NCBI GenBank assembly: GCA_031546725.1
Contig: JAVBJZ010000007.1
Location: 788-64,787, forward strand
Reading direction: 5' to 3'
From: Azospirillum sp.
Lineage (GTDB): Bacteria > Pseudomonadota > Alphaproteobacteria > Azospirillales > Azospirillaceae
Length of the DNA: 64,000 nt
The notes below the pieces were generated by a model. It had not been told where the DNA came from and ran no database searches. It saw nothing but the letters and a program-made list of their open reading frames with translations. The first letter of the stretch is position 1; each line of letters begins with the position of its first letter. The position numbers and the translations under genes were made by a program. Below, one piece after another: positions 681 to 49,137 of the stretch.

Positions 681-725
681 GCTTACAGCCACACCCTTTA
701 CGGCCACGTCCTTTACGGCCACGCT
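681..725. repeat. 15-bp tandem repeat x3 (degenerate), intergenic
   Basis: GCTTACAGCCACACC / CTTTACGGCCACGTC / CTTTACGGCCACGCT at 681, 696, 711. Confidence 0.85.
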
Positions 726-729
726 ATAG

Positions 730-744
730 GTTCACTTTTTGTTC
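730..744 (+). promoter_or_regulatory. alphaproteobacterial LexA (SOS) box
   Basis: GTTC-ACTTTTT-GTTC, an exact GTTC-N7-GTTC match, 112 bp upstream of the ORF at 857. Confidence 0.65.
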
Positions 745-856
745 TTGAAGCCCGTACGGTCGCCTCCATATTTAGGGCCCGGCTTTATGGTTAACGCCAA
801 CGCAGCGCTCCCCGCAACGGATGGTGTGCGGGGCGCTTGTCTAGAGGACCCGAGCG

Positions 857-1645
857 ATGGGACGTATGAGCAAGACCGACACCACCGCTGAAACCAGTGG
901 GATGGAAAGCAAAACCAAAACACCGGAGAAAGCTGCGGTGAGCGCCCCGCGCGCTGATAGTCTCTATCTATGGAATCGCTTGAAGCGGACGGACCCGAAA
1001 GCAACCAAGCCTTTCGCCCGCCCCGGCGGCTTTCGCGGCACACAGATCGATCCGACTTGGCGCCTCCAGATGATGACCGAGGTGTTCGGTCCGGTCGGCA
1101 AGGGCTGGGGGTATGAACAGATGGACTGGACCATCGCCGAGCGCATGGTCTTCATCTGCGCCCATGTCTGGTACATCGACCCGCAAACCGGCCAAACATG
1201 CTGGACCGGCCCGCAATGGGGCGGCACCGAAATGCTGCGCCGGCGCAACGGAATCGAGGCGCCGGACGACGAATGCTTCAAGATGTCGATGACCGACGCG
1301 GTGGGCAAATGCCTGCTGCAATTGGGCCTCGGCGCTGACATCTACATGGGCCAGTTCGACGATTCCAAATACCGCGAGGAGTCCGAGGCCTATTACGCCA
1401 TCAAGGCCAACCCCGCGCTTCAGCCCGAGGCCATCCAGGCTTTCGAGAGCGAGGTGAAGGGGCGCCTGGACGCCTGTCTTGACCTGGATGATTTGGAAGA
1501 GGTCTGGCGCGCCGGCGTCAGCGTTCATCTGCGCGAGATCGGCACAGTGGACAAGGCGGCCCAGCACCGCATCACCGCTCTGTTCGCCCAGAAGAAGGGC
1601 GAAATCATCAAGCGCGAGGAGGCCGACGGTCGTGAGGCCGCGTGA
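857..1645 (+). CDS. phage-type Rad52/Rad22 (Sak-like) single-strand annealing protein, putative
   Basis: LWNRLKRTDP..TKPF...GGFRGTQIDPTWRLQMMTEVFGP.G.GWG and KMSMTDAVGKCLLQLGLGADIYMG resemble Rad52-like phage recombinases (from memory). RBS GAGGA at 844-848. Alternative start 866. Confidence 0.6.
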   Translation: MGRMSKTDTTAETSGMESKTKTPEKAAVSAPRADSLYLWNRLKRTDPKATKPFARPGGFRGTQIDPTWRLQMMTEVFGPVGKGWGYEQMDWTIAERMVFICAHVWYIDPQTGQTCWTGPQWGGTEMLRRRNGIEAPDDECFKMSMTDAVGKCLLQLGLGADIYMGQFDDSKYREESEAYYAIKANPALQPEAIQAFESEVKGRLDACLDLDDLEEVWRAGVSVHLREIGTVDKAAQHRITALFAQKKGEIIKREEADGREAA

Positions 1646-1651
1646 CGCCCC

Positions 1652-2017
1652 ATGCATGTCAAGGGAATGATGACCGCCCACACGGAACGTTCCCCCAGCG
1701 GCCTGTTCCGCATGTCCGTCTGGGAAAACGACATGGAACGCACCTACACGCAAATGCCGGCCTGGTATTGGAACCATGCTGAGCGGCGCTGGCATTTCGC
1801 CCGCTGGGTCGAGATGGAGGCCAGCGGCATGGCGATGCTGCTGGCGCGGCACCTGCGCTCGGACACCCCCTTGGAAACCGCCGGACCAACGCGCCGCATG
1901 CTTGACCTGCTGATGCATGACGCGCACTGGGCCCAGCGCGCCACCGAACAGCCTGCCGCCCAACAGCCTCCCGCCCCCTCTGGCCGGACAGCCGCGTGGC
2001 GTCAGGAAAAATCGTAA
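1652..2017 (+). CDS. hypothetical protein (Trp/Met-rich)
   Basis: Starts 6 nt after the upstream stop, same strand; no family recognised. Start may be 1667/1670. Confidence 0.6.
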   Translation: MHVKGMMTAHTERSPSGLFRMSVWENDMERTYTQMPAWYWNHAERRWHFARWVEMEASGMAMLLARHLRSDTPLETAGPTRRMLDLLMHDAHWAQRATEQPAAQQPPAPSGRTAAWRQEKS

Positions 2018-2034
2018 AGAAAGGACCAAAGGCG

Positions 2035-2343
2035 ATGACCATCGAGGAGGTCCAAGCCCGTCTGCGCGCAGCGCATGCCCGCATCGGGCATGAGGGCCGC
2101 TTCGCCCTGACCCTCATCTCCAGCAAAACCGACGAGGCATACCTCACGCATTGGTTCCGCCCCGACCCCACCGCCTTCGAGGAATGCAAGGCGGTGGGCT
2201 CCGGCGCCCTCACCGACTGTCTGGCGGCGCTGGAGCGCTATACCGCCGGTTATCACCGCCAACCCACGCCGGAGGAAATCGGTCGCACCCTCGGCCTGAT
2301 CCGATCAGCCGAAGGCCGCCGTTTCCTGATGGTCGCGGAGTGA
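2035..2343 (+). CDS. hypothetical protein
   Basis: ATG at 2035 (MTIEEVQARL) after AAAGGA; third gene of the apparent operon, convergent on tex. Confidence 0.65.
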   Translation: MTIEEVQARLRAAHARIGHEGRFALTLISSKTDEAYLTHWFRPDPTAFEECKAVGSGALTDCLAALERYTAGYHRQPTPEEIGRTLGLIRSAEGRRFLMVAE

Positions 2344-2350
2344 TGACGTC

Positions 2351-4690
2351 TTAGCGCTTCTTCTCCTTGGCCCGGGCGAACGCATCGGCGAAGGCGCCGC
2401 TGGGCGGGGCGACCTCGGCGCGGGGCTCCGCTGGCTTCTTCACCGCTGGCTTGCTCTGCTGGGCCTTGGCCGGCGCGGCGCGGCGCTCATCCCGTTGCCC
2501 CTCCCTCTGCGGCGATGGTGCGGCGACCGGCTCGCTCAGGCGCATGGTCAGGGCGATCCGCTTGCGCGGCAAGTCCACCTCTTGGACCTTCACCTTGACG
2601 ATGTCGCCGGCCTTCACCACCGCGTGCGGGTCCTTCACGAAGCTGTTGGCGAGCTGCGAGATATGCACCAGCCCATCCTGGTGCACGCCCACATCGACGA
2701 AAGCCCCAAAGGCGGTGACGTTGGTCACCACCCCCTCCAGCAGCATGCCGGGCTGGAGATCCTTCAGCTCGTTGACCCCCTCCTTGAACACGGCGGCCTT
2801 GAATTCCGGGCGCGGGTCACGGCCGGGCTTCTCCAGCTCTTTCAGGATATCCTCCACCGTCGGCAAGCCAAAGCGTGCGTCGGTGAAGTCCTCGGCGTTC
2901 AGCGACCGCAGGTAGCGCGCGTCCCCGATCACCGCGCTCAGTTCCTTGCCGAGCGTCTTCAAAATACGCTCGACCACCGGGTAGGCTTCGGGGTGCACGG
3001 CCGAACCGTCCAGCGGCGTGTCGCCACCCCGGATGCGCAGGAAGCCAGCGGCCTGCTCAAAGGTCTTCGGCCCGAGGCGCGACACCTCCAGAAGCTGCTT
3101 GCGCGACCGGAACGCGCCGTTGGCGTCGCGGTATTCGACGATGTTGCGGGCGGTGGTCTCATTCAGGCCGGACACGCGGGTCAGAAGCGGGATGGAGGCG
3201 GTGTTGAGATCGACACCGACGGCGTTCACGCAATCCTCAACCACCGCGTCCAGCGAGCGCGCCAGCTTCTGCGGGGCCACATCGTGCTGGTACTGGCCGA
3301 CACCGATGGATTTCGGCTCGATCTTCACCAACTCGGCCAGCGGGTCTTGCAGACGCCGCGCGATGGACACCGCGCCGCGCAGGCTGACGTCAAGCTGCGG
3401 GAACTCCGCCGCGGCGGTCGCTGAGGCCGAATACACCGACGCCCCGGCCTCCGACACCATGATCTTCGACAGCTTCAGTTCCGGGTGGCGGGCGAAGAGA
3501 TCGGCGACCAGCTTGTCGGTCTCGCGCGAGGCGGTGCCGTTGCCGATGGCGATCAGCTCCGCCTTGTGGCGCACGGCCAGCGCGGCGATAACGGCGATGG
3601 AGCCATCCCAATCGTTGCGGGGCTGGTGCGGGTAGATGGTGGAGGTCTCCACCAGCTTGCCGGTGGCGTCCACCACCGCAACCTTGACGCCGGTGCGGAT
3701 GCCCGGATCGAGGCCAATGGTGGAGCGCATGCCGGCGGGGGCCGCCAGCAGCAGATCGTGCAGATTGCGAGCGAAGACACGAATCGCCTCATCCTCGGCC
3801 TGTTCGCGCAGAGCTGCGGTCAAATCGGTTTCGATGTGCGGACCGATTTTCAGCTTCCAGGTCCAGCGCACCACATCGGCCAGCCATTTGTCCGCCGGAC
3901 GCCCCAGATCACGGATGCCGGTGTGAACCGCAATCGTGCCCTCGGCTGGATGCTTGGCTCCCGGCTCGACATCCAGGTCAAGGCGCAGGTCAAGCACACC
4001 CTGGGCGCGGGCGCGGAACAGCGCCAGCGCGCGGTGCGACGGGATCTGTTTCCACGACTCGGAAAAGTCGAAATAATCGGAGAATTTGGCGCCCTCGGCC
4101 CGCTTCTCCTCAACGACCTTTGAGAAGATCTTGCCTTGCTCCGCCATGGTCGTGCGCAGGCGACCGACCAATTCGGCATCCTCGCCAAAACGCTCAACCA
4201 GAATATGCCGGGCGCCGTCCAGCGCCGCCTTGACGTCGGCCACTTCCTTGGCGGGATCGACAAAAGCGGCGGCCTCGGCCTCCGGCGCCTTGCCGGGATC
4301 AGCCAGCAACTGGTCGGCCAGCGGCTCCAACCCCGCCTCACGGGCGATCTGCGCCTTGGTGCGGCGCTTGGGCTTGTAGGGAAGGTAAAGGTCTTCCAGG
4401 CGCGTCTTGGTGTCCGCCGCCTGGATCTGCCCCGCCAGCTCCGGCGTCAGCTTGCCTTGCTCCTGGACGGAAGCGAGAATCGCGGCGCGGCGATCCTCCA
4501 ACTCGCGCAGATAGCCCAGCCGCTCCTCAAGCGTGCGGAGGTGCGTGTCGTCAAGGCCGCCGGTGGCCTCCTTGCGGTAGCGCGCGATGAAGGGAACCGT
4601 CGAGCCTTCGTCAAGCAAGGTGACGGCGGCGGCGACCTGATTTTCGCGGACCTGGAGTTCGTCGGCGATGCGCTGGCTGATCGAAAGCAT
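2351..4690 (-). CDS. tex: Tex family RNA-binding transcriptional accessory protein
   Basis: [21 protein letters not shown]-terminus, YqgF-like [11 protein letters not shown], HhH motifs, C-terminal S1 domain ([17 protein letters not shown]). Confidence 0.97.
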
Positions 4691-4779
4691 GACAGGACGT
4701 GACCATGGTGAATGCAAAGCGGTCCTATACCCCGGAGGAGACGCTGCGTGCCAGGGGGGATTCGGCGATGAATTTACGG

Positions 4780-7700
4780 TTACTTCAAGAATGAGAGAAC
4801 CAACCCCTTCTGTGGAGAGGCCAAGGCGGCGATCTGCTCATCGGTGAAGGCCTGGACATTGCTGGCTCCAAGATCCGCAATCTGCGTCATGGTCAACCCT
4901 TTGACCGCCGCTGTCGTCAGCCATTGCGCGTTCGCGCCGGAATGATCGTTTCCAGTGCTCAAGAGGTCATTAAGCAATGCCGTGGACATGACGGAGAGCT
5001 GGGTCGCGGTGAAGCCTTTCATCTGCGCCGAACTCAGATTATCCAGGACATCCGTTGCAAACGCCTTGACCTGCGCGGTCGAGAGAGCGGCGATTTGCGT
5101 CGCGGCCAGCCCATGGACATGCTCGGCGTCCAAGTCCCCGATCTGGCCGGACGACAAGGCCCTGATCTGCGTCACGGTCAGGTCTTTGATAAGATTTTTG
5201 TCCCAATGGGCGACATCCAGGGCGGAAATGGACACACCGCTGACAAACTTCTCTGCGTAAGGCGTAACCCCGTACAGACCCAAGAGCGCATCAACCTGGC
5301 TGGTGTTCATCGCCCCCACCTGCGCCAGGGTAAGTCCCTTGAGCTGGTTGGCGCTCAGATCGCCAATTTGGTCCGCCGTCAAGACTTTGATCTGGTTAAC
5401 GGTCATCGCACCGATCTGTCCGGCGTTCAAACTATCGAACAGATCGGTGGGATCAGCCGCCGTCCCCGTCAGAAGCGTGATCTGGTCCGAGGACAGAGCC
5501 CGGATCTGGGCTGTGGTCAGGGCGCCGACATTGGCCGCGCCCAGACCTGTAATACCCGACCCCAGAGCGGTGATGCTGGCCGCGGACAAGGCCACGACTT
5601 GATTTGTTGACAAACGGGCCAGATCAGCCTGAGCAATTCCTTTCATTTGGGCTGCGGACAAGGCGGCGACCTGGGTCGTGGTCAGAGCCGCAGCCCGATC
5701 CGTTGCGAGCGCGCCAATCTGCGTCGTCGTGAGAGCCCTGATCTGAGCGTTGGTCAGCGCGGAAATTTGGGCGTCCGTCAGATTAGCGACATCCAAAGCA
5801 GCGATCTGCGCCGTGGTCAGGCCTGCGACATCGCTGGTTTTCATCCCCATAATCTGCGTCGCGGTCAAAGCCGCGAGCTGGGCCGCGGACAAAGCGTTGA
5901 TCTGGGTGGCGGTCAGGGCCCTGACCCCATCGGCGGTCAAGCCAGAAAGCTGCAACGGCGACAAGGCGCTTATGGTCAACTTCGCAATCTGCGCCGCCGA
6001 AAGGACGCTGATTTCGTCTCTCGTCAACGCCGCAGAGAGCGTGCTGATGAGGGTGGCAGGCACATCGCTGATATCAAGGGCGCCTCCCGCCGAATAAGGA
6101 GCTTTCAGCTTGCTCGCAAGTATAGTTTTCTGATCGACCGTAAGCCCGATTAATTGCTGATCCGTCAAGGCGTCAACCTGCGGACGGGTTAATGATAAAA
6201 GTTGCGTTATGGAAAAATTACTTAGATTAGCGCCGATGAGCGCCCGAAACTGCGTCAGCGGCAACGCCTGGATCTGCGCCGTCGTCAAGTCACTGATGCC
6301 GCCAAGCAAGAGAGAAAGGTCCAATCCTGCGATCTGAGTGAAAGTCAAGCTCTGGATCTGTGCTTTGCTGAGCGTCATCGTGCTTAAGATGGCGTTAAGC
6401 TGCGCTGAAGACAAAGCCGCGATCTGGCCTTTGGTGGCAGGGGTGCTGATGCTCAGATCCCAGATCTGTACCTGCGTCAACTTCTGAAACCAGCCGGGGC
6501 TCACACCGGCAAGCTGAGCATTCGTCAAGCTGTCGATTTGCTCCTTCTCTTTCTTGAGATCACCACCCGTCAGGGCTTGGACCTGATACTTATCCAGCGC
6601 CTCAAGCTGCGTGGCCGTCAGCGCCGCCACTCCCCTTGGGAGTAGATTCCAAATAAGATTTCCCTCCAGACCTTGAATTTGGGTTGGCGTCAAGGTCTTG
6701 ATGAGAGAATCTTTCTTAAGAAGATCGGTTATATCATAGTACTGTAGCGCATCATTTAGCGAAAAATCTGAGTAATTAATCGAAAAACCTAAAGAACTAT
6801 AGTAATTATACAGTGATTCAAAATCATTTAAAATTTCTTTTTTCATTATTGCCGCTTGATTTAAATTAAAACTCTTAATACATTCAACAGCTTCCCAATA
6901 ATAATAAACCGTTGATGAGTTCCAATACGCATCAATATTCCGGCACACATCTAAAATTTGCGCAGATGTTGTACCTTTTGTCTGACCAATTGTCATTACA
7001 CCGAATTGGTCGACCGTCAACACGCCACCCATAGCGCCAATCTGCGTTGCTGAAAGGGCTTTGAATTGGGTGAGCGACAGTTTGTCGAACGGTATTTCCT
7101 TGGTTTGGGAAGGGTTCAGGGCCGCAAACTGGGTCTTGGTGAATCCCCTCACCTGATCTGTTGTCAGCCCGCGAATCTGTGTCTCGCTAAAACCCTTGAC
7201 CGCAGCCGTGGTGAGGTTGCCGATCTGCGTTCTCGTCAGCGCATTGAGTTGGGCCATGGTCAAATCGGCAATCTGGGCCGCCGTAAAGCCCGCAACCGCA
7301 GCCGTGGTCAATATACCGATCTGTACAGGCGTCAATCCATCGATCTGGTCCATGTCCGCGTTTGCACCCGTTCCCCCAGCGCTCAAACGAGCAAGCTGGG
7401 TGGCGGTCAATGCGGCGACGGCATCGTAATCCAAGGCGCCAATCTGCGTAGAGTTCAATGCTGCAAATTGAACGGTGCTCAAAGAACCAAGCATGGCCCC
7501 GTTCAACGCACCGATAGCCATGGTGGTGAGATGACTGATTTGCGAATCGGTAAAGGCTGCAATCTGATTTTTTGTGAAAATGTTAATGTCCTCTGGCGTC
7601 AAACCAGCAACCGCTAAGGAATCCAGTTTCTTGATTTGCGATGTTGTTAACACTCCGAGTTGGGTTCTTGTCAGAATACCAACAGCGGTTTCATCCAACT

Positions 7701-8286
7701 GCCCCACTTGCGTCACGGACAGCCGGCCAATCAATGCGCTGTCCAAGCCAAGAATCGCCCCAGTGCTCAGCGCGGCGAACTGGGTATCGCTCAGCGCATT
7801 CAGCTTGGCGCCCAAAGCACGGGCGTTCACCGTGTCCAGCTTGGCGATCTGGGCCGTGGTCAACGTGGCAAGAATTTCAGCACTCAACCCGGCGATTTGA
7901 CTGTTCGTTAGGGCATCGAACTGATCAGCGCTCAACTTCCGCATCAACACCGCAGTTTTACTGATGTCTGCAATAACAGCGGCGCTAAGCTTGCCAACAT
8001 CCAACGCCGCTATGGCGCCTGACGGTATCTTCTTAAATTGATCGATCGTCAAAGCGCCGATCGCCGAGGTGGACAAAGCCGCCACCCTGTCAGCGGGGGC
8101 GTCGCCGACGCTTCCCGCGCCCGTCAGCAGCAACGCAAACACGTCAGGTCTGAAGGCCAGAACTTGCGTTCCCGTAAGAAAAGCTATGCTTGCAGCGTCC
8201 CAATCAGCCGGCGCAAAAGTAGAAGCGGACCACCCGCTTATGATGCTTGTGCTTAAATTTTCGACACCGGCCCGGTCATACGGCAT
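4780..8286 (-). CDS. large 8-residue-period (L-T/S-x-x-Q-I) repeat protein, putative surface/secreted solenoid
   Basis: 1168-aa ORF with dozens of LTxxQIxxL units, RBS AAGGA upstream, no signal peptide, non-repeat insert at about 6705-6950. Confidence 0.85.
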
Positions 8287-47070: not shown

Positions 47071-48585
47071 TCAGATTTGCGCACGCTCGTGAGCAAGCCG
47101 CATCAGCACGTACTGGCGCATCATCTGGTTGCGAAAACGGTAGCGAAAACGCCCAGGCTCGGGCACCGCCGCCAAGACATTGCCGTGGTCTTCATCGGAT
47201 AACCGCTTGAGCATCCCATCAAGATCGGCAAAGACCGGCATGCCCTCGGGACCGGTCAGTTCTTTGGGATCGAAAACGCCGTATTCATCGGCCGGGCATA
47301 ACGCGGCGGCGTGCAGCACATCTTCCAACTCGACACGCCGGGCGCCGGCAAGCGCCCGATTGTAAGAGTCGACGATACCGCGTTCCGCCTCTTGCAGGCA
47401 GCGATTGGCCGCGTAAGCAAGATCGACGCGCTCAACGGTCGTCGCCTCCCGGCTGATAGCGCTGCGCGCCGCGTGCAGACCAAGCAATTGCGCATAATAG
47501 GGCAGCCCACGGACAAACTCCGCGATGCGGCGGACCACATCCGGCGCGAAGCCGATCCCCGCGTTCTCCCCTCCGGCTTGAATCAACCGCTCGATCTCTT
47601 TGTCAGTCATCAAGGGCAGGTGCACGGGCGCCAGTGACCGCTGAATCGAGGGGTGCTTGCCAAGCAACTGGTCAAGATTTTCGGCCACGCCGACGATCAG
47701 CAAGGTTACGGAGATTGAGCTGTCAGTCAGGTTTTTCAGCATTTCCGCGAGCTTGTTGCGAAAATCCTCGTCGGTGATGCGGTCGTATTCGTCGAGAATC
47801 AGCAACGCATGCGTGCCGTAGATACCGGCAAGCACCTCGTTCAGCTCGGTGACGCTGAAGCTACCCTCTGGCAACAGCTCGTTGAAGCTGGTGAAGGTGC
47901 GGCGCGCCGCGAAGGGGTTATCCATCCCCGAGCGGTAGTAGGTGGAGGGAATGCGCCGCAGTAAATGACGAAAACTGTCCTCGAAGCTCAACTCGGCGCT
48001 GCATGTCAGCTTGAGCGCCAAATACCCGGCTTGCGCCGCGATCTGCTCGATGGCGTTGGCCACGGACGTCTTGCCACGACCACGGTCACCGAACAGGATG
48101 ACATGCGCCCGCTCTTCCTCGATGGCCGAGATGATGCGCTTGAGCGCGGCAGTGCGGCCAACGAACAAGGCGTTCAGCGCCTGCTTTGGCCGGGTTGGCG
48201 TGAACGCCTCGCGCAGGCGACCGTTCATTTCCGGCGTCAACCCGGTCAACAGCGCCGGCGCCGTGCCGCGCGGTCCTCGCAGGCCGGTGTTTACCGGCAT
48301 GGTGAAGCGCGGCAGGTCGTGATCACCGCCGCCGGAACCAGCGTCGCCGAGTTGTCGGCCATGCTGGGTCGGCGTCATTCCCGCTCCGGGCACCGCACGC
48401 AACCGTGGCGGCCCACCCATGCTGACAGGGGACCGCAGGGGCCCCGAGGGTGATCCTGGAGCCCCCATCCCGGTGAAGCCTGCCGGATTCTCGCCCTCCT
48501 TGGCGCCCGGGGCGTTGAGGCCCGGACCGCCCGTAGCATCGTCGTCCACACCGGCGCTGCGCCGTTTCCGAAAAAAATTCCGCAT
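47071..48585 (-). CDS. AAA+ ATPase (ORC/Cdc6-like) with low-complexity N-terminal extension
   Basis: LREAFTP..P, FVGR, Walker A GDRGRGKT, Walker B LILDEYD, PYYAQLLG. Alternative start 48651. Confidence 0.87.
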   Translation of the reverse strand: MRNFFRKRRSAGVDDDATGGPGLNAPGAKEGENPAGFTGMGAPGSPSGPLRSPVSMGGPPRLRAVPGAGMTPTQHGRQLGDAGSGGGDHDLPRFTMPVNTGLRGPRGTAPALLTGLTPEMNGRLREAFTPTRPKQALNALFVGRTAALKRIISAIEEERAHVILFGDRGRGKTSVANAIEQIAAQAGYLALKLTCSAELSFEDSFRHLLRRIPSTYYRSGMDNPFAARRTFTSFNELLPEGSFSVTELNEVLAGIYGTHALLILDEYDRITDEDFRNKLAEMLKNLTDSSISVTLLIVGVAENLDQLLGKHPSIQRSLAPVHLPLMTDKEIERLIQAGGENAGIGFAPDVVRRIAEFVRGLPYYAQLLGLHAARSAISREATTVERVDLAYAANRCLQEAERGIVDSYNRALAGARRVELEDVLHAAALCPADEYGVFDPKELTGPEGMPVFADLDGMLKRLSDEDHGNVLAAVPEPGRFRYRFRNQMMRQYVLMRLAHERAQI

Positions 48586-48832
48586 TGCCCCTGCTTCCCG
48601 ACCATCGTCACCAAGCGCCGGCTCCACCTCGTGAGAGCCGGCTCCATTCAAATATTTAAGGATGCCGAGGCGTGGGAGGGGCTGCGAAATCGGATATTAT
48701 ACTGATGCGGATATGGGTCTGCGTACTCTTCAATTCCTGAATATAATTTTTGGCAGAGAAATGTAGTTCTTTCCTTCTATTGATCGTCAAGCCGGCGCTT
48801 GCCCCGCAGCCGAAAGCCCAAGCTTAGCCCCA

Positions 48833-48931
48833 TCAAAGGCCAAGCGCGTAACCAAACAGCGTCCAAGCGTACAGCGTGGCCAGCAACGCGATCAGGGTGA
48901 ACATCTCTTTCAGAAACTCGAGCATCGGCAT
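48833..48931 (-). CDS. 32-aa single-TM small protein (below the ORF-track cutoff)
   Basis: MPMLEFLKEMFTLIALLATLYAWTLFGYALGL*, with GAGGA 8 nt before the ATG. Confidence 0.6.
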   Translation of the reverse strand: MPMLEFLKEMFTLIALLATLYAWTLFGYALGL

Positions 48932-49137
48932 GGCGCTGTTCCTCATATCGCGTGAGAGCGCCGAGGCTGACAGAACGAATTGCGAACTTCAAGCGTTAAG
49001 TTTCCTCTGTGTTCCCTATATCACCCCTTCTTGTGCCTGCATCCGCCATACCCCCTCGATGTGAGAGGAACGCCTGCGCTGCTGGCCGGACCTTCAACCA
49101 CGGGGTAACGAACTTTGCTGCAATGCGGCGGCCAATC

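What the first reader, a model, noticed from the sequence alone, without database searches (positions are those of the whole stretch)
730..2343. LexA-box-preceded three-gene operon encoding a phage-type Rad52-like annealing protein, with no prophage around it
Seen: an exact GTTC-N7-GTTC upstream of a tightly packed operon (857-2343), an imperfect leader hairpin at about 804-838, host-like GC, and housekeeping neighbours. Known: this is the alphaproteobacterial LexA consensus, and Rad52/Sak-like single-strand annealing proteins are typically phage-encoded. Inference: a domesticated, SOS-inducible RecA-independent annealing or repair module with two unknown partners.
Basis: partly seen in the sequence, partly recalled or inferred. 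Interest (0 to 1): 0.66.

Follow-up and report, generated by a model that had tools for sequence, protein, structure and literature searches.

The report
SOS-boxed domesticated phage recombinase operon, exonuclease deleted
This is a phage-derived DNA-recombination operon (a Rad52-like strand-annealing protein plus two unknown small proteins) that Azospirillum-type bacteria have kept as a host gene cluster behind a conserved DNA-damage (LexA) operator, and in this genome its usual fourth gene, a YqaJ exonuclease, has been cleanly deleted.

Summary
GTTCACTTTTTGTTC lies at 730-744. Three tightly packed genes follow: 857-1645, 1652-2017 and 2035-2343. GC is host-like and the neighbours are not phage genes.

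One match to the box pattern is weak evidence (4 in the window, 1.5 expected). Its conservation is not weak: the same box lies upstream of the orthologous cluster in 59 of 63 related loci, directly against a conserved TTGAA / CATATT promoter-like pair.

Gene 1 matches no Pfam or NCBIfam family. Its AlphaFold model matches only human RAD52, and a family profile finds only RAD52 among solved structures. It is a Rad52-superfamily annealing protein.

The window has lost about 0.9 kb of yqaJ. A 7-codon scar ORF remains at 821-844. The "leader hairpin" lies on this scar and folds no better than shuffled sequence.

Genes 1-3 are under purifying selection (dN/dS 0.14-0.52; the housekeeping neighbour Tex 0.17-0.21). 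Genes 2 and 3 stay unknown.

Damage induction, LexA binding and annealing are inferred, not shown. No paper describing such a module was found.

The parts
730..744 (+). [quoted passage not shown]
   Evidence: Exact match. The same box, consensus GTTCnnnTTTTGTTC, lies upstream of the orthologous cluster in 59 of 63 loci. It has the highest information content in the anchored alignment. The motif comes from the literature. Binding was not tested.
745..772 (+). Promoter-like elements: TTGAAG (745-750), a 16-nt spacer, CATATT (767-772). The first hexamer starts directly after the box.
   Evidence: TTGAA and CCATATT are nearly invariant in 60 aligned promoter regions. The consensus scan did not call a promoter at its thresholds, so this is an inference from conservation. 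The transcript start is not resolved.
773..818 (+). Retained 5' leader of the ancestral yqaJ gene, including the conserved TTATGGTTAACGCC at 785-798
   Evidence: Window 713-798 aligns with the region upstream of yqaJ in L002, L003, L004 and L006 at 77-80% identity.
819..844 (+). Deletion scar of yqaJ. The junction lies in a short stretch similar to both flanks (GG.GTG, about 819-833). What remains is a 7-codon ORF, ATG 821 to TAG 844 (MVCGALV*), whose end matches the yqaJ C-terminus (..QLV*).
Evidence: About 36 nt of window (799-834) replace about 940 nt of L004 (5040-5978), which is nearly the whole yqaJ ORF at 5074-5988. tblastn finds no YqaJ anywhere in the 64 kb.
857..1645 (+). Gene 1: Rad52-superfamily single-strand annealing protein (SSAP), 262 aa. 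Disordered N-terminus (1-31), a beta/alpha core (about 35-165) and a helical C-terminal domain (170-262). The ribosome-binding site GAGGA is at 844-848.
   Evidence: No Pfam, NCBIfam or PDB sequence match for the single protein. PHROG 7838, E 3.6e-42, is labelled 'exonuclease', which is probably a mislabel. AF2 pLDDT 76.6, above 85 in most of the core. Foldseek finds RAD52 and phage Rad52/Sak3/ERF proteins. The profile finds RAD52. dN/dS 0.14-0.22.
1652..2017 (+). Gene 2: conserved small protein of unknown function. Its core of about 85 aa reads SPSGLF..WE..P.WY..R..F..WV.AEA..LA..L....DA.WAR.
   Evidence: Follows gene 1 in 55 of 64 loci, 29-69% identity. No Pfam, NCBIfam, PHROG or PADLOC match. 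dN/dS 0.35-0.52.
2035..2343 (+). Gene 3: conserved small protein of unknown function with an alpha-beta-beta-beta-alpha fold. Its last three residues are A-A-E in nearly all orthologues. It is of phage origin.
   Evidence: Orthologues in the same clusters. A 53% identical copy lies about 1 kb upstream of the SSAP paralogue, with one gene between, in a real prophage early region, L065. AF2 pLDDT 85; no significant PDB fold match, best E 0.17. dN/dS 0.22-0.34.

Best explanation
This is the local copy of a phage-derived two-component recombinase module that has become a vertically inherited host locus in Azospirillum and related Rhodospirillales. The ancestral cluster is yqaJ (a lambda-Exo-type 5'-3' exonuclease), then g1 (a Rad52-superfamily single-strand annealing protein), then g2 and g3.

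The cluster lies behind a promoter whose first hexamer touches a GTTC-N7-GTTC LexA operator. The proposed mechanism has three steps. LexA holds the promoter shut. DNA damage leads to LexA self-cleavage, which releases it. The exonuclease then resects double-strand ends and the annealing protein pairs the exposed complementary single strands. This would give RecET/Red-like, largely RecA-independent repair or fork rescue. g2 and g3 would act as accessory factors.

In this genome a deletion of about 0.9 kb, between short similar sequences, removed yqaJ. It left the operator, the promoter, the leader and the g1 ribosome-binding site. The annealing protein and the two small proteins are now the first genes behind the operator. 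They would have to work alone, or with an exonuclease encoded elsewhere.

Shown: the anatomy, the fold, the conservation of genes and box, the deletion and purifying selection. Inferred: LexA binding, damage induction, annealing activity and the cellular role.
For: - Fold and family. The AF2 model of g1 matches human RAD52 in the top 21 PDB matches (E down to 1.9e-5, probability 1.0, target TM 0.41-0.50). It also matches phage proteins named Rad52/59/22, Sak3 and ERF. A profile of 42 diverse family members finds only RAD52 below E 1 among 177,635 PDB sequences (E 0.018). That alignment covers RAD52 57-159 and includes the K..(A/V)TD..K helix.
- Family size and neighbours. The family has 4398 clusters at 50% identity. 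Distant members lie next to YqaJ, a PD-(D/E)XK nuclease or Sipho_Gp157.
- Exonuclease partner. A YqaJ gene (PF09588) directly precedes g1 in about 50 loci and lies within 6 kb in others.
- Operator. The box is present in 59 of 63 loci. It stays upstream of g1 where yqaJ lies elsewhere, and L053 and L054 have a second box beside the relocated yqaJ. Box, TTGAA and CCATATT form the conserved block. The motif is published.
- Domestication. No phage genes flank the cluster. The cluster is convergent with Tex throughout Azospirillum. dS of g1 matches dS of Tex for the same genome pairs, and dN/dS is 0.14-0.22 against 0.17-0.21 for Tex. A true prophage copy of the module (L065: g3-like gene, SSAP paralogue, HNH, NinB, integrase) shows the likely source.
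- Deletion.
Against: - No experimental or transcript evidence for damage induction was available.
- The consensus promoter scan found no sigma-70 site.
- RNA contigs of a related Azospirillum cover sequence 86 nt upstream of the box. They also break just before g1. The transcript start and co-transcription are therefore unresolved, and there is clearly some expression without deliberate damage.
- g1 matches no curated Rad52 sequence model. The RAD52 profile match is marginal (E 0.018).
- TM scores are moderate, because the C-terminal helices are placed with low confidence.
- The exonuclease is missing here, so the two-component mechanism cannot run as described in this genome unless another nuclease substitutes.
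- The deletion could not be checked against reads or against an independent assembly.
- LexA binding to this motif has not, to my knowledge, been shown in Azospirillum itself.
Confidence: 0.65

Rival explanations
1. In this genome the module is on its way out. Loss of the exonuclease disabled the system, and g1-g3 are relics that have not yet picked up disabling mutations.
For: yqaJ is deleted only here among the roughly 60 orthologous loci examined. The palindrome kept in most relatives' promoter spacers is degenerate here. Pairwise dN/dS averages over long branches and cannot detect recent relaxation.
Against: g1, g2 and g3 are full length and keep all invariant residues. The box, both hexamers and the ribosome-binding site are intact. 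dN/dS for the window is no higher than for pairs of relatives. In other genera g1-g2-g3 lie behind their own box without an adjacent yqaJ, so the three-gene unit can be expressed on its own.
Confidence: 0.2
2. g1 is a DdrA-like DNA-end protection protein rather than an annealase. It would bind 3' single-stranded ends after damage and shield them from nucleases until repair.
For: DdrA of Deinococcus is a host-encoded, damage-induced Rad52 homologue (PMC515370, listed). From my own knowledge, not checked here, it protects DNA ends. The window's g1 has no partner exonuclease.
Against: In nearly all relatives g1 is paired with a lambda-Exo-type exonuclease, often with overlapping or adjacent reading frames. 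That is the signature of exo/annealase recombinases. The closest structural neighbours among phage proteins are annotated as annealases.
Confidence: 0.12
3. The conserved GTTC-N7-GTTC element is not a LexA site, or is not the main control. Another regulator, perhaps one that binds the conserved spacer palindrome, or a constitutive upstream promoter, governs expression.
For: A palindrome cTGCG-N4-CGCAg between the two hexamers is conserved in most loci. RNA contigs from ordinary cultures cover the cluster and begin upstream of the box. The extended first half-site (AGGTTC) departs from the Caulobacter consensus (T/A)TGTTC.
Against: The four-base repeats and the T before the second repeat are the invariant positions, exactly as in the published motif. 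The box follows both g1 and yqaJ when they are separated. Extra boxes lie in front of a neighbouring small gene beside a RecD2-like helicase in other genera, which suggests a damage-response neighbourhood.
Confidence: 0.1
4. The cluster serves mobile-element or phage conflict, for example superinfection exclusion, support of a satellite or gene transfer agent, or defence, rather than host DNA repair.
For: All recognisable parts come from phage: PHROG matches, the prophage paralogue L065 and the phage g3 homologue.
Against: No match to 5027 defence-system models. No integrase or structural genes nearby. The cluster is stably syntenic and appears vertically inherited across genera.
Confidence: 0.06

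Closest known systems
Phage exonuclease/annealase recombinases with a YqaJ-type exonuclease: lambda Red-alpha/Red-beta, Rac RecE/RecT, B. subtilis skin-element YqaJ/YqaK
   Same: In relatives the layout is the same: a lambda-Exo/YqaJ-fold exonuclease directly followed by a Rad52-superfamily annealing protein, with small accessory genes.
   Different: Here the pair is a conserved host locus on Azospirillum chromids, not part of a prophage. It lies behind a LexA-type operator. The annealase belongs to a clade that Pfam does not cover. In this window the exonuclease is deleted.
Rad52 / Sak / Sak3 / ERF annealing proteins (Rad52 superfamily)
   Same: The predicted core fold and the helix motif K..(A/V)TD..K align with the RAD52 N-terminal DNA-binding domain. 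Phage Rad52/Sak3/ERF models are the structural neighbours.
   Different: No match to any Pfam or NCBIfam model, for the window protein or for 42 diverse relatives. Identity to RAD52 is 13-19%. A conserved helical C-terminal domain of about 90 aa is specific to this family.
DdrA of Deinococcus radiodurans
   Same: A bacterial, chromosomally encoded Rad52-family protein that belongs to a DNA-damage regulon (PMC515370).
   Different: From my own knowledge: DdrA is controlled by the Deinococcus-specific damage-response regulators, not by LexA, stands alone without an exonuclease partner, and protects DNA ends. No direct sequence comparison was made here.
Alphaproteobacterial SOS regulon (LexA, GTTC-N7-GTTC)
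   Same: Same operator type, placed at the promoter.
   Different: In the papers found here, the described regulons of Caulobacter, Rhodobacter and the rhizobia include no exonuclease/annealase module.

Membership tests
Rad52-superfamily single-strand annealing proteins | N-terminal DNA-binding core with the Rad52 beta-beta-beta-alpha fold | tested here: met
   AF2 model, core pLDDT mostly 85-94. The top 21 Foldseek PDB matches are all RAD52: E 1.9e-5 to 1e-2, probability 0.99-1.0, target TM 0.41-0.50. This rests on a predicted structure only.
Rad52-superfamily single-strand annealing proteins | Sequence match to a curated family model (Pfam Rad52_Rad22, or the RecT, ERF or Sak models) | tested here: not met
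   No Pfam or NCBIfam match at E <= 1 for g1 and none for 42 diverse relatives. The only sequence-level link is the profile match to RAD52 at E 0.018.
Rad52-superfamily single-strand annealing proteins | Oligomeric ring, single-stranded DNA binding and strand annealing | not testable with these tools
   Needs a multimer prediction, electron microscopy or biochemistry.
Two-component exonuclease/annealase recombinase (Red or RecET type) | A 5'-3' exonuclease gene next to the annealase gene | tested here: not met
   Not met in the window: no YqaJ in 64 kb, and a deletion scar at 819-844. Met in about 50 orthologous loci.
Two-component exonuclease/annealase recombinase (Red or RecET type) | Located in a phage or prophage | tested here: not met
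   No phage genes in the flanks of the window or of L001. The locus is conserved and syntenic across genera.
Alphaproteobacterial LexA (SOS) regulon | [quoted passage not shown] | tested here: met
   Exact match at 730-744, 113 nt before the g1 ATG. The second half matches TGTTC of the Caulobacter consensus.
Alphaproteobacterial LexA (SOS) regulon | Operator conserved in orthologous promoters | tested here: met
   59 of 63 loci with upstream sequence carry an exact box, and L023 differs by one base. The box has the highest information content in the anchored alignment.
Alphaproteobacterial LexA (SOS) regulon | Operator overlaps or touches core promoter elements | tested here: inconclusive
   A conserved TTGAA starts directly after the box and CATATT follows after 16-17 nt. 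The consensus scan called no promoter, and RNA contigs do not fix the transcript start.
Alphaproteobacterial LexA (SOS) regulon | LexA binding, and recA/lexA-dependent induction by DNA damage | not testable with these tools
   No runs were found for the window. The RNA runs of a relative are unstranded contigs from unknown conditions.
Decaying prophage remnant | Patchy distribution, phage flanks, pseudogenes or relaxed selection | tested here: not met
   Present in every orthologous locus retrieved. The flanks are not phage. dN/dS is 0.14-0.52 and dS matches Tex. The one decay-like event is the yqaJ deletion in this window.
Known anti-phage defence systems (PADLOC) | Match to a defence-system protein model | tested here: not met
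   No match for g1, g2, g3 or the L004 YqaJ at E <= 0.01.

The most novel reading that the evidence does not exclude
Azospirillum and its relatives carry a previously unrecognised host DNA-repair pathway that belongs to the SOS response. It would be a captured phage exonuclease/annealase system with two new accessory proteins (g2 and g3), performing RecA-independent single-strand annealing after DNA damage. Such a system could contribute to the repeat-mediated replicon rearrangements for which Azospirillum is known (my own knowledge, not checked here). The natural exonuclease-less variant in this window would show that the annealase and its two partners are kept on their own.
Probability: 0.35. 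Interest if true: 0.72.

Novelty: new variant of a known kind. Interest (0 to 1): 0.58.

Why it matters
Exonuclease/annealase pairs are regarded as phage tools. Bacteria are generally thought to rely on RecA for homologous repair. A family-wide, vertically inherited copy placed under the host's damage repressor would be a clear case of a phage recombination system recruited into the SOS response.

The organisms are easy to work with. A. brasilense and A. lipoferum are culturable and genetically tractable, so induction, LexA binding and repair phenotypes can be tested directly.

The work also gives a function to a large unannotated protein family (4398 clusters at 50% identity). Pfam does not cover this family, and PHROGs labels it 'exonuclease'. 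The cluster could also provide native recombineering parts for Azospirillum and related plant-associated alphaproteobacteria.

The deletion variant is a natural experiment on whether the annealase needs its exonuclease.

Tried and rejected
- The single g1 sequence against Pfam, NCBIfam and PDB sequences gave nothing. Pfam on 42 diverse relatives also gave nothing relevant.
- PHROGs calls the g1 family 'exonuclease'. I rejected that label. The fold is Rad52-like, and the real exonuclease is the neighbouring YqaJ.
- The leader hairpin was rejected as a regulatory element (z = -0.44, and it lies on the deletion scar).
- The other three box matches in the window were examined as possible SOS genes. 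Two are inside genes. One lies before a 32-codon hydrophobic ORF. None is a canonical SOS gene, so the window offers no internal control for the motif.
- g2 has only one word-sharing homologue and no PHROG or Pfam match among 13 orthologues.
- g3 gave a confident model but no significant fold match. Some weak matches share its alpha-beta-beta-beta-alpha order, as in double-stranded-RNA-binding domains, all at E > 0.1.
- PADLOC gave nothing.
- The deletion could not be checked against reads or another assembly: no runs and no contig on record.
- The left flank cannot be extended. The hydrolase has no counterpart in any related locus.
- RNA contigs of a related Azospirillum show expression, but they are unstranded, so they settle neither the transcript start nor co-transcription.
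- Four literature searches for a LexA-controlled YqaJ/annealase module found no such description.
Full report
**1. What is in the sequence**

The + strand carries GTTCACTTTTTGTTC at 730-744. Three ORFs follow in the same direction:
- g1, 857-1645, 262 aa
- g2, 1652-2017, 121 aa (orthologue alignments suggest the true start may be 1667 or 1670)
- g3, 2035-2343, 102 aa

The gaps between them are 6 and 17 nt. Tex (2351-4717) converges on g3 with a 7-nt gap. An alpha/beta hydrolase (12-662) lies upstream. GC is 0.59-0.67 in the operon and 0.65-0.70 beside it. To the right lie Tex, an ALTTAQ-repeat protein, hydrogenase/complex-I-like genes, a STAND ATPase and an ankyrin protein. No phage genes were found.

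**2. Is the box more than chance?**

As a bare pattern it is not. The window has 4 matches against 1.47 expected, and 9 of 100 shuffles reach 4. Two of the other matches lie inside genes, and none precedes a canonical SOS gene.

The case rests on comparison with relatives.
- I retrieved 77 loci that encode relatives of g1 from species-representative genomes, plus one from A. thermophilum.
- Where yqaJ directly precedes g1, an exact GTTC-N7-GTTC lies 103-200 nt before the yqaJ start in 47 of 50 loci. One exception, L023, differs by one base. Another, L058, has only 39 nt of upstream sequence. The third, L071, is a distant phage-type relative.
- Where yqaJ lies elsewhere (L044, L048, L050-L057), the box stays upstream of g1. 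L053 and L054 have a second box beside the relocated yqaJ.
- An ungapped alignment of 60 promoter regions anchored on the box shows near-maximal information at four places: GTTC, the T-run before the second GTTC, the TTGAA that starts directly after the box, and CCATATT 16-17 nt further on.

The motif is the published alphaproteobacterial LexA site, GTTC-N7-GTTC (PMC8565304; PMC3323433). The Caulobacter consensus is (T/A)TGTTC(N6)TGTTC (PMC13384398). The second half-site fits that consensus exactly. The flank of the first half-site (AGGTTC) does not.

A box that touches the first promoter hexamer is the geometry expected of a repressor, but this reading is an inference. The simple consensus scan called no promoter.

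**3. What g1 is**

- No Pfam, NCBIfam or PDB sequence match was found for the single protein.
- It matches PHROG 7838 (E 3.6e-42), which is labelled 'exonuclease'.
- Orthologues at 60-83% identity occur throughout Azospirillum and in Skermanella, Arenibaculum, Virgifigura, Aerophototrophica and Stellaceae. All are annotated 'hypothetical protein'.
- A profile search of 1.84 billion representative proteins found 4398 clusters at E <= 1e-3, so the family is large.
- The AlphaFold model has mean pLDDT 76.6 and mostly 85-94 in the core. It shows a disordered N-terminus, a beta/alpha core and a helical C-terminal domain.
- Foldseek against the PDB returns human RAD52 as the top 21 matches (best E 1.9e-5, probability 1.0).
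- Foldseek against predicted viral structures returns uncharacterised phage proteins (best E 8.9e-14) and proteins named Rad52/59/22, Sak3 and ERF.
- Independently, a profile of 42 diverse family members finds only RAD52 below E 1 among all PDB sequences (E 0.018). The alignment covers RAD52 residues 57-159. It places the family's invariant K142 and T146-D147 on the RAD52 helix ..K-E-A-V-T-D-G-L-K-R...

g1 is therefore a Rad52-superfamily annealing protein from a clade that curated libraries do not yet cover. The PHROG label is best read as carried over from the neighbouring gene.

**4. The missing gene**

In A. thermophilum a 322-aa YqaJ protein (PF09588; lambda-exonuclease family, TIGR03033) overlaps the start of the g1 orthologue by 4 nt. 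tblastn shows the same order, yqaJ-g1-g2-g3, in about 50 loci, usually convergent with Tex. The window has no YqaJ anywhere in its 64 kb.

DNA alignments locate the loss.
- Window 713-798 aligns with the region upstream of yqaJ in the closest relatives (L004 4954-5039).
- Window 835-883 aligns with the last codons of yqaJ and the start of g1 (L004 5979-6027).
- About 36 nt of window (799-834) therefore replace about 940 nt of L004.
- The junction lies in a short stretch similar to both flanks (GG.GTG, about 819-833). This is consistent with a deletion between short repeats.
- What remains is a 7-codon ORF, ATG 821 to TAG 844 (MVCGALV*). Its end matches the yqaJ C-terminus (QLV*). The g1 ribosome-binding site GAGGA (844-848) follows.

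No other locus among the roughly 60 shows this deletion. It could not be checked against reads or another assembly.

**5. Domesticated, not decaying**

- The flanks carry no integrase or structural genes, in the window or in L001.
- The cluster lies on 0.9-2 Mb chromids of Azospirillum.
- For the same genome pairs, dS of g1 tracks dS of Tex: window-L004 0.63 against 0.57, L004-L007 0.43 against 0.46, L007-L020 0.47 against 0.47. This fits vertical co-divergence.
- dN/dS is 0.14-0.22 for g1 in window comparisons, 0.17-0.21 for Tex, 0.22-0.34 for g3, 0.35-0.52 for g2, and 0.22-0.37 for yqaJ among relatives.
- No defence-system model matches.
- A true prophage copy exists in Azospirillum sp. A26 (L065). 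It runs: a g3-like gene (53% identical, also ending in AAE), a PHROG 'exonuclease', an SSAP paralogue (39%), HNH, NinB/Orf, a methyltransferase and an integrase. This shows the likely source, and it shows that g3 also comes from phage.
- Distant family members lie next to YqaJ, a PD-(D/E)XK nuclease, Sipho_Gp157 or DUF3127. These are the usual companions of phage annealases.

**6. g2 and g3**

- g3 folds confidently (pLDDT 85) as helix, three strands, helix and a short helix. It has no significant structural neighbour (best E 0.17).
- g2 has a conserved core of about 85 aa rich in Trp and Arg. It matches nothing.
- Both remain of unknown function. Their fixed position after the annealase suggests they are accessory factors, for example partners of the annealase or modulators of a host nuclease. 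That is speculation.

**7. Expression**

RNA-derived contigs from a related Azospirillum cover yqaJ, g1, g2 and g3. The cluster is therefore expressed in ordinary cultures. In three of four runs yqaJ and g1-onwards are separate contigs, and the second has 2.6- to 4.4-fold greater depth. Contig ends recur 86 nt upstream of the box, and 8-16 nt before the g1 ATG. The contigs are unstranded and each carries a single mean depth. They settle neither the transcript start nor co-transcription, and they say nothing about induction.

**8. Most likely mechanism**

LexA sits on the box and blocks the adjacent promoter. Damage triggers LexA cleavage and transcription of the cluster. YqaJ resects double-strand ends 5'-3', and g1 loads on the 3' single strand and anneals it to a complementary strand. 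The outcome would be RecET/Red-like repair or fork rescue that needs little or no RecA.

In this genome only the annealase and the two small proteins remain behind the operator. They may use single-stranded DNA made by other nucleases or at replication forks, as annealases do in oligo recombineering. Alternatively the locus may have begun to decay.

Anatomy, fold, conservation, selection and the deletion are shown. Binding, induction, annealing and the cellular role are inferred.

**9. Comparison with what is known, and novelty**

The parts are known kinds: a YqaJ/lambda-Exo exonuclease, a Rad52-superfamily annealase and an alphaproteobacterial LexA box. Four things are new in combination.
- The recombinase module is a conserved host locus across a bacterial family.
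- It is under the host damage operator.
- Its annealase clade and two partner proteins are uncharacterised.
- A natural variant without the exonuclease exists.

DdrA of Deinococcus is the nearest precedent for a host-encoded, damage-regulated Rad52-like protein (PMC515370). It has a different regulator and no exonuclease partner. Four literature searches found no description of a LexA-controlled YqaJ/annealase module. The library is incomplete, so this is absence of evidence only.

I rate it a new variant of a known kind, with interest 0.58.

Noticed in passing
window 48833-48987 (minus strand): The only other intergenic GTTC-N7-GTTC in the window (GTTCGCAATTCGTTC, 48973-48987) lies 42 nt before a 32-codon, strongly hydrophobic ORF (48931 down to 48833, MPMLEFLKEMFTLIALLATLYAWTLFGYALGL) that has a GAGGAA ribosome-binding site. 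It resembles the small SOS-controlled membrane peptides of the TisB/DinQ kind. A STAND/AAA ATPase gene (47071-48651) follows on the same strand.
   Followed up: partly
promoter spacer in related loci, e.g. L020 4909-4925; window 751-766: Between the TTGAA and CATATT hexamers most orthologous promoters carry a conserved palindrome, cTGCG-N4-CGCAg. It is seen in Azospirillum, Skermanella, Arenibaculum and Aerophototrophica, and could be a second operator. It is weak in the window's closest relatives and degenerate in the window.
   Followed up: partly
L050 7738-8145, L054 7465-7815 and L057 7424-7801 (minus strand); helicase at L050 8681-10975 and L054 8360-10633: In genera outside Azospirillum, a conserved ORF of about 110 aa on the minus strand (M.YLP.IELTPQVR..LARGAL.L.PGQWVR) lies just after g3. 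In L050, L056 and L057 a GTTC-N7-GTTC box lies close to its start; L054 has none there. A RecD2-like helicase follows. This suggests a wider damage-response gene neighbourhood.
   Followed up: partly
C-termini of g1 (window 1637-1642) and g3 (window 2332-2340): In the aligned sets, 25 of 26 g1 sequences end in Ala-Ala or Val-Ala, and 28 of 29 g3 sequences (plus the prophage copy) end in Ala-Ala-Glu. The g1 ending resembles ClpX-type C-terminal degradation signals, but this is only a recalled resemblance.
   Followed up: no
window 4780-8286 (minus strand): An 1168-aa ALTTAQ-repeat protein (PF20080, E 3e-80) contains a low-GC stretch (0.40 at 6501-7000, against about 0.65 around it). It lies between Tex and the hydrogenase-like genes. 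In A. thermophilum (L001) those genes come next after Tex, about 0.8 kb away.
   Followed up: no
L020 4802 and 5985-5993 (the latter corresponds to window 841-849): RNA contigs from two independent studies of a related Azospirillum end at the same places: 86 nt upstream of the box, and 8-16 nt before the g1 start. The g1-onwards contig has 2.6- to 4.4-fold greater depth than the yqaJ contig. This could mean an internal promoter or a processing site in front of g1.
   Followed up: partly
PHROG families 7838, 7792 and 2489; L065 5222-5986: PHROG 7838, which g1 and its prophage paralogue match strongly, is labelled 'exonuclease', although the fold is that of a Rad52-like annealase. The 254-aa L065 protein that matches PHROG 10477, also labelled 'exonuclease', is an Ala/Lys-rich, probably coiled protein. 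A protein at the same position in L066 matches Sipho_Gp157. Both labels look unreliable.
   Followed up: partly
NZ_CP032342.1, NZ_CP033315.1, NZ_CP033317.1 and NZ_CP033321.1 (A. brasilense replicons): Short matches of 107 nt at 75% identity to the g1 core occur on other A. brasilense replicons. They probably mark prophage paralogues like L065.
   Followed up: no
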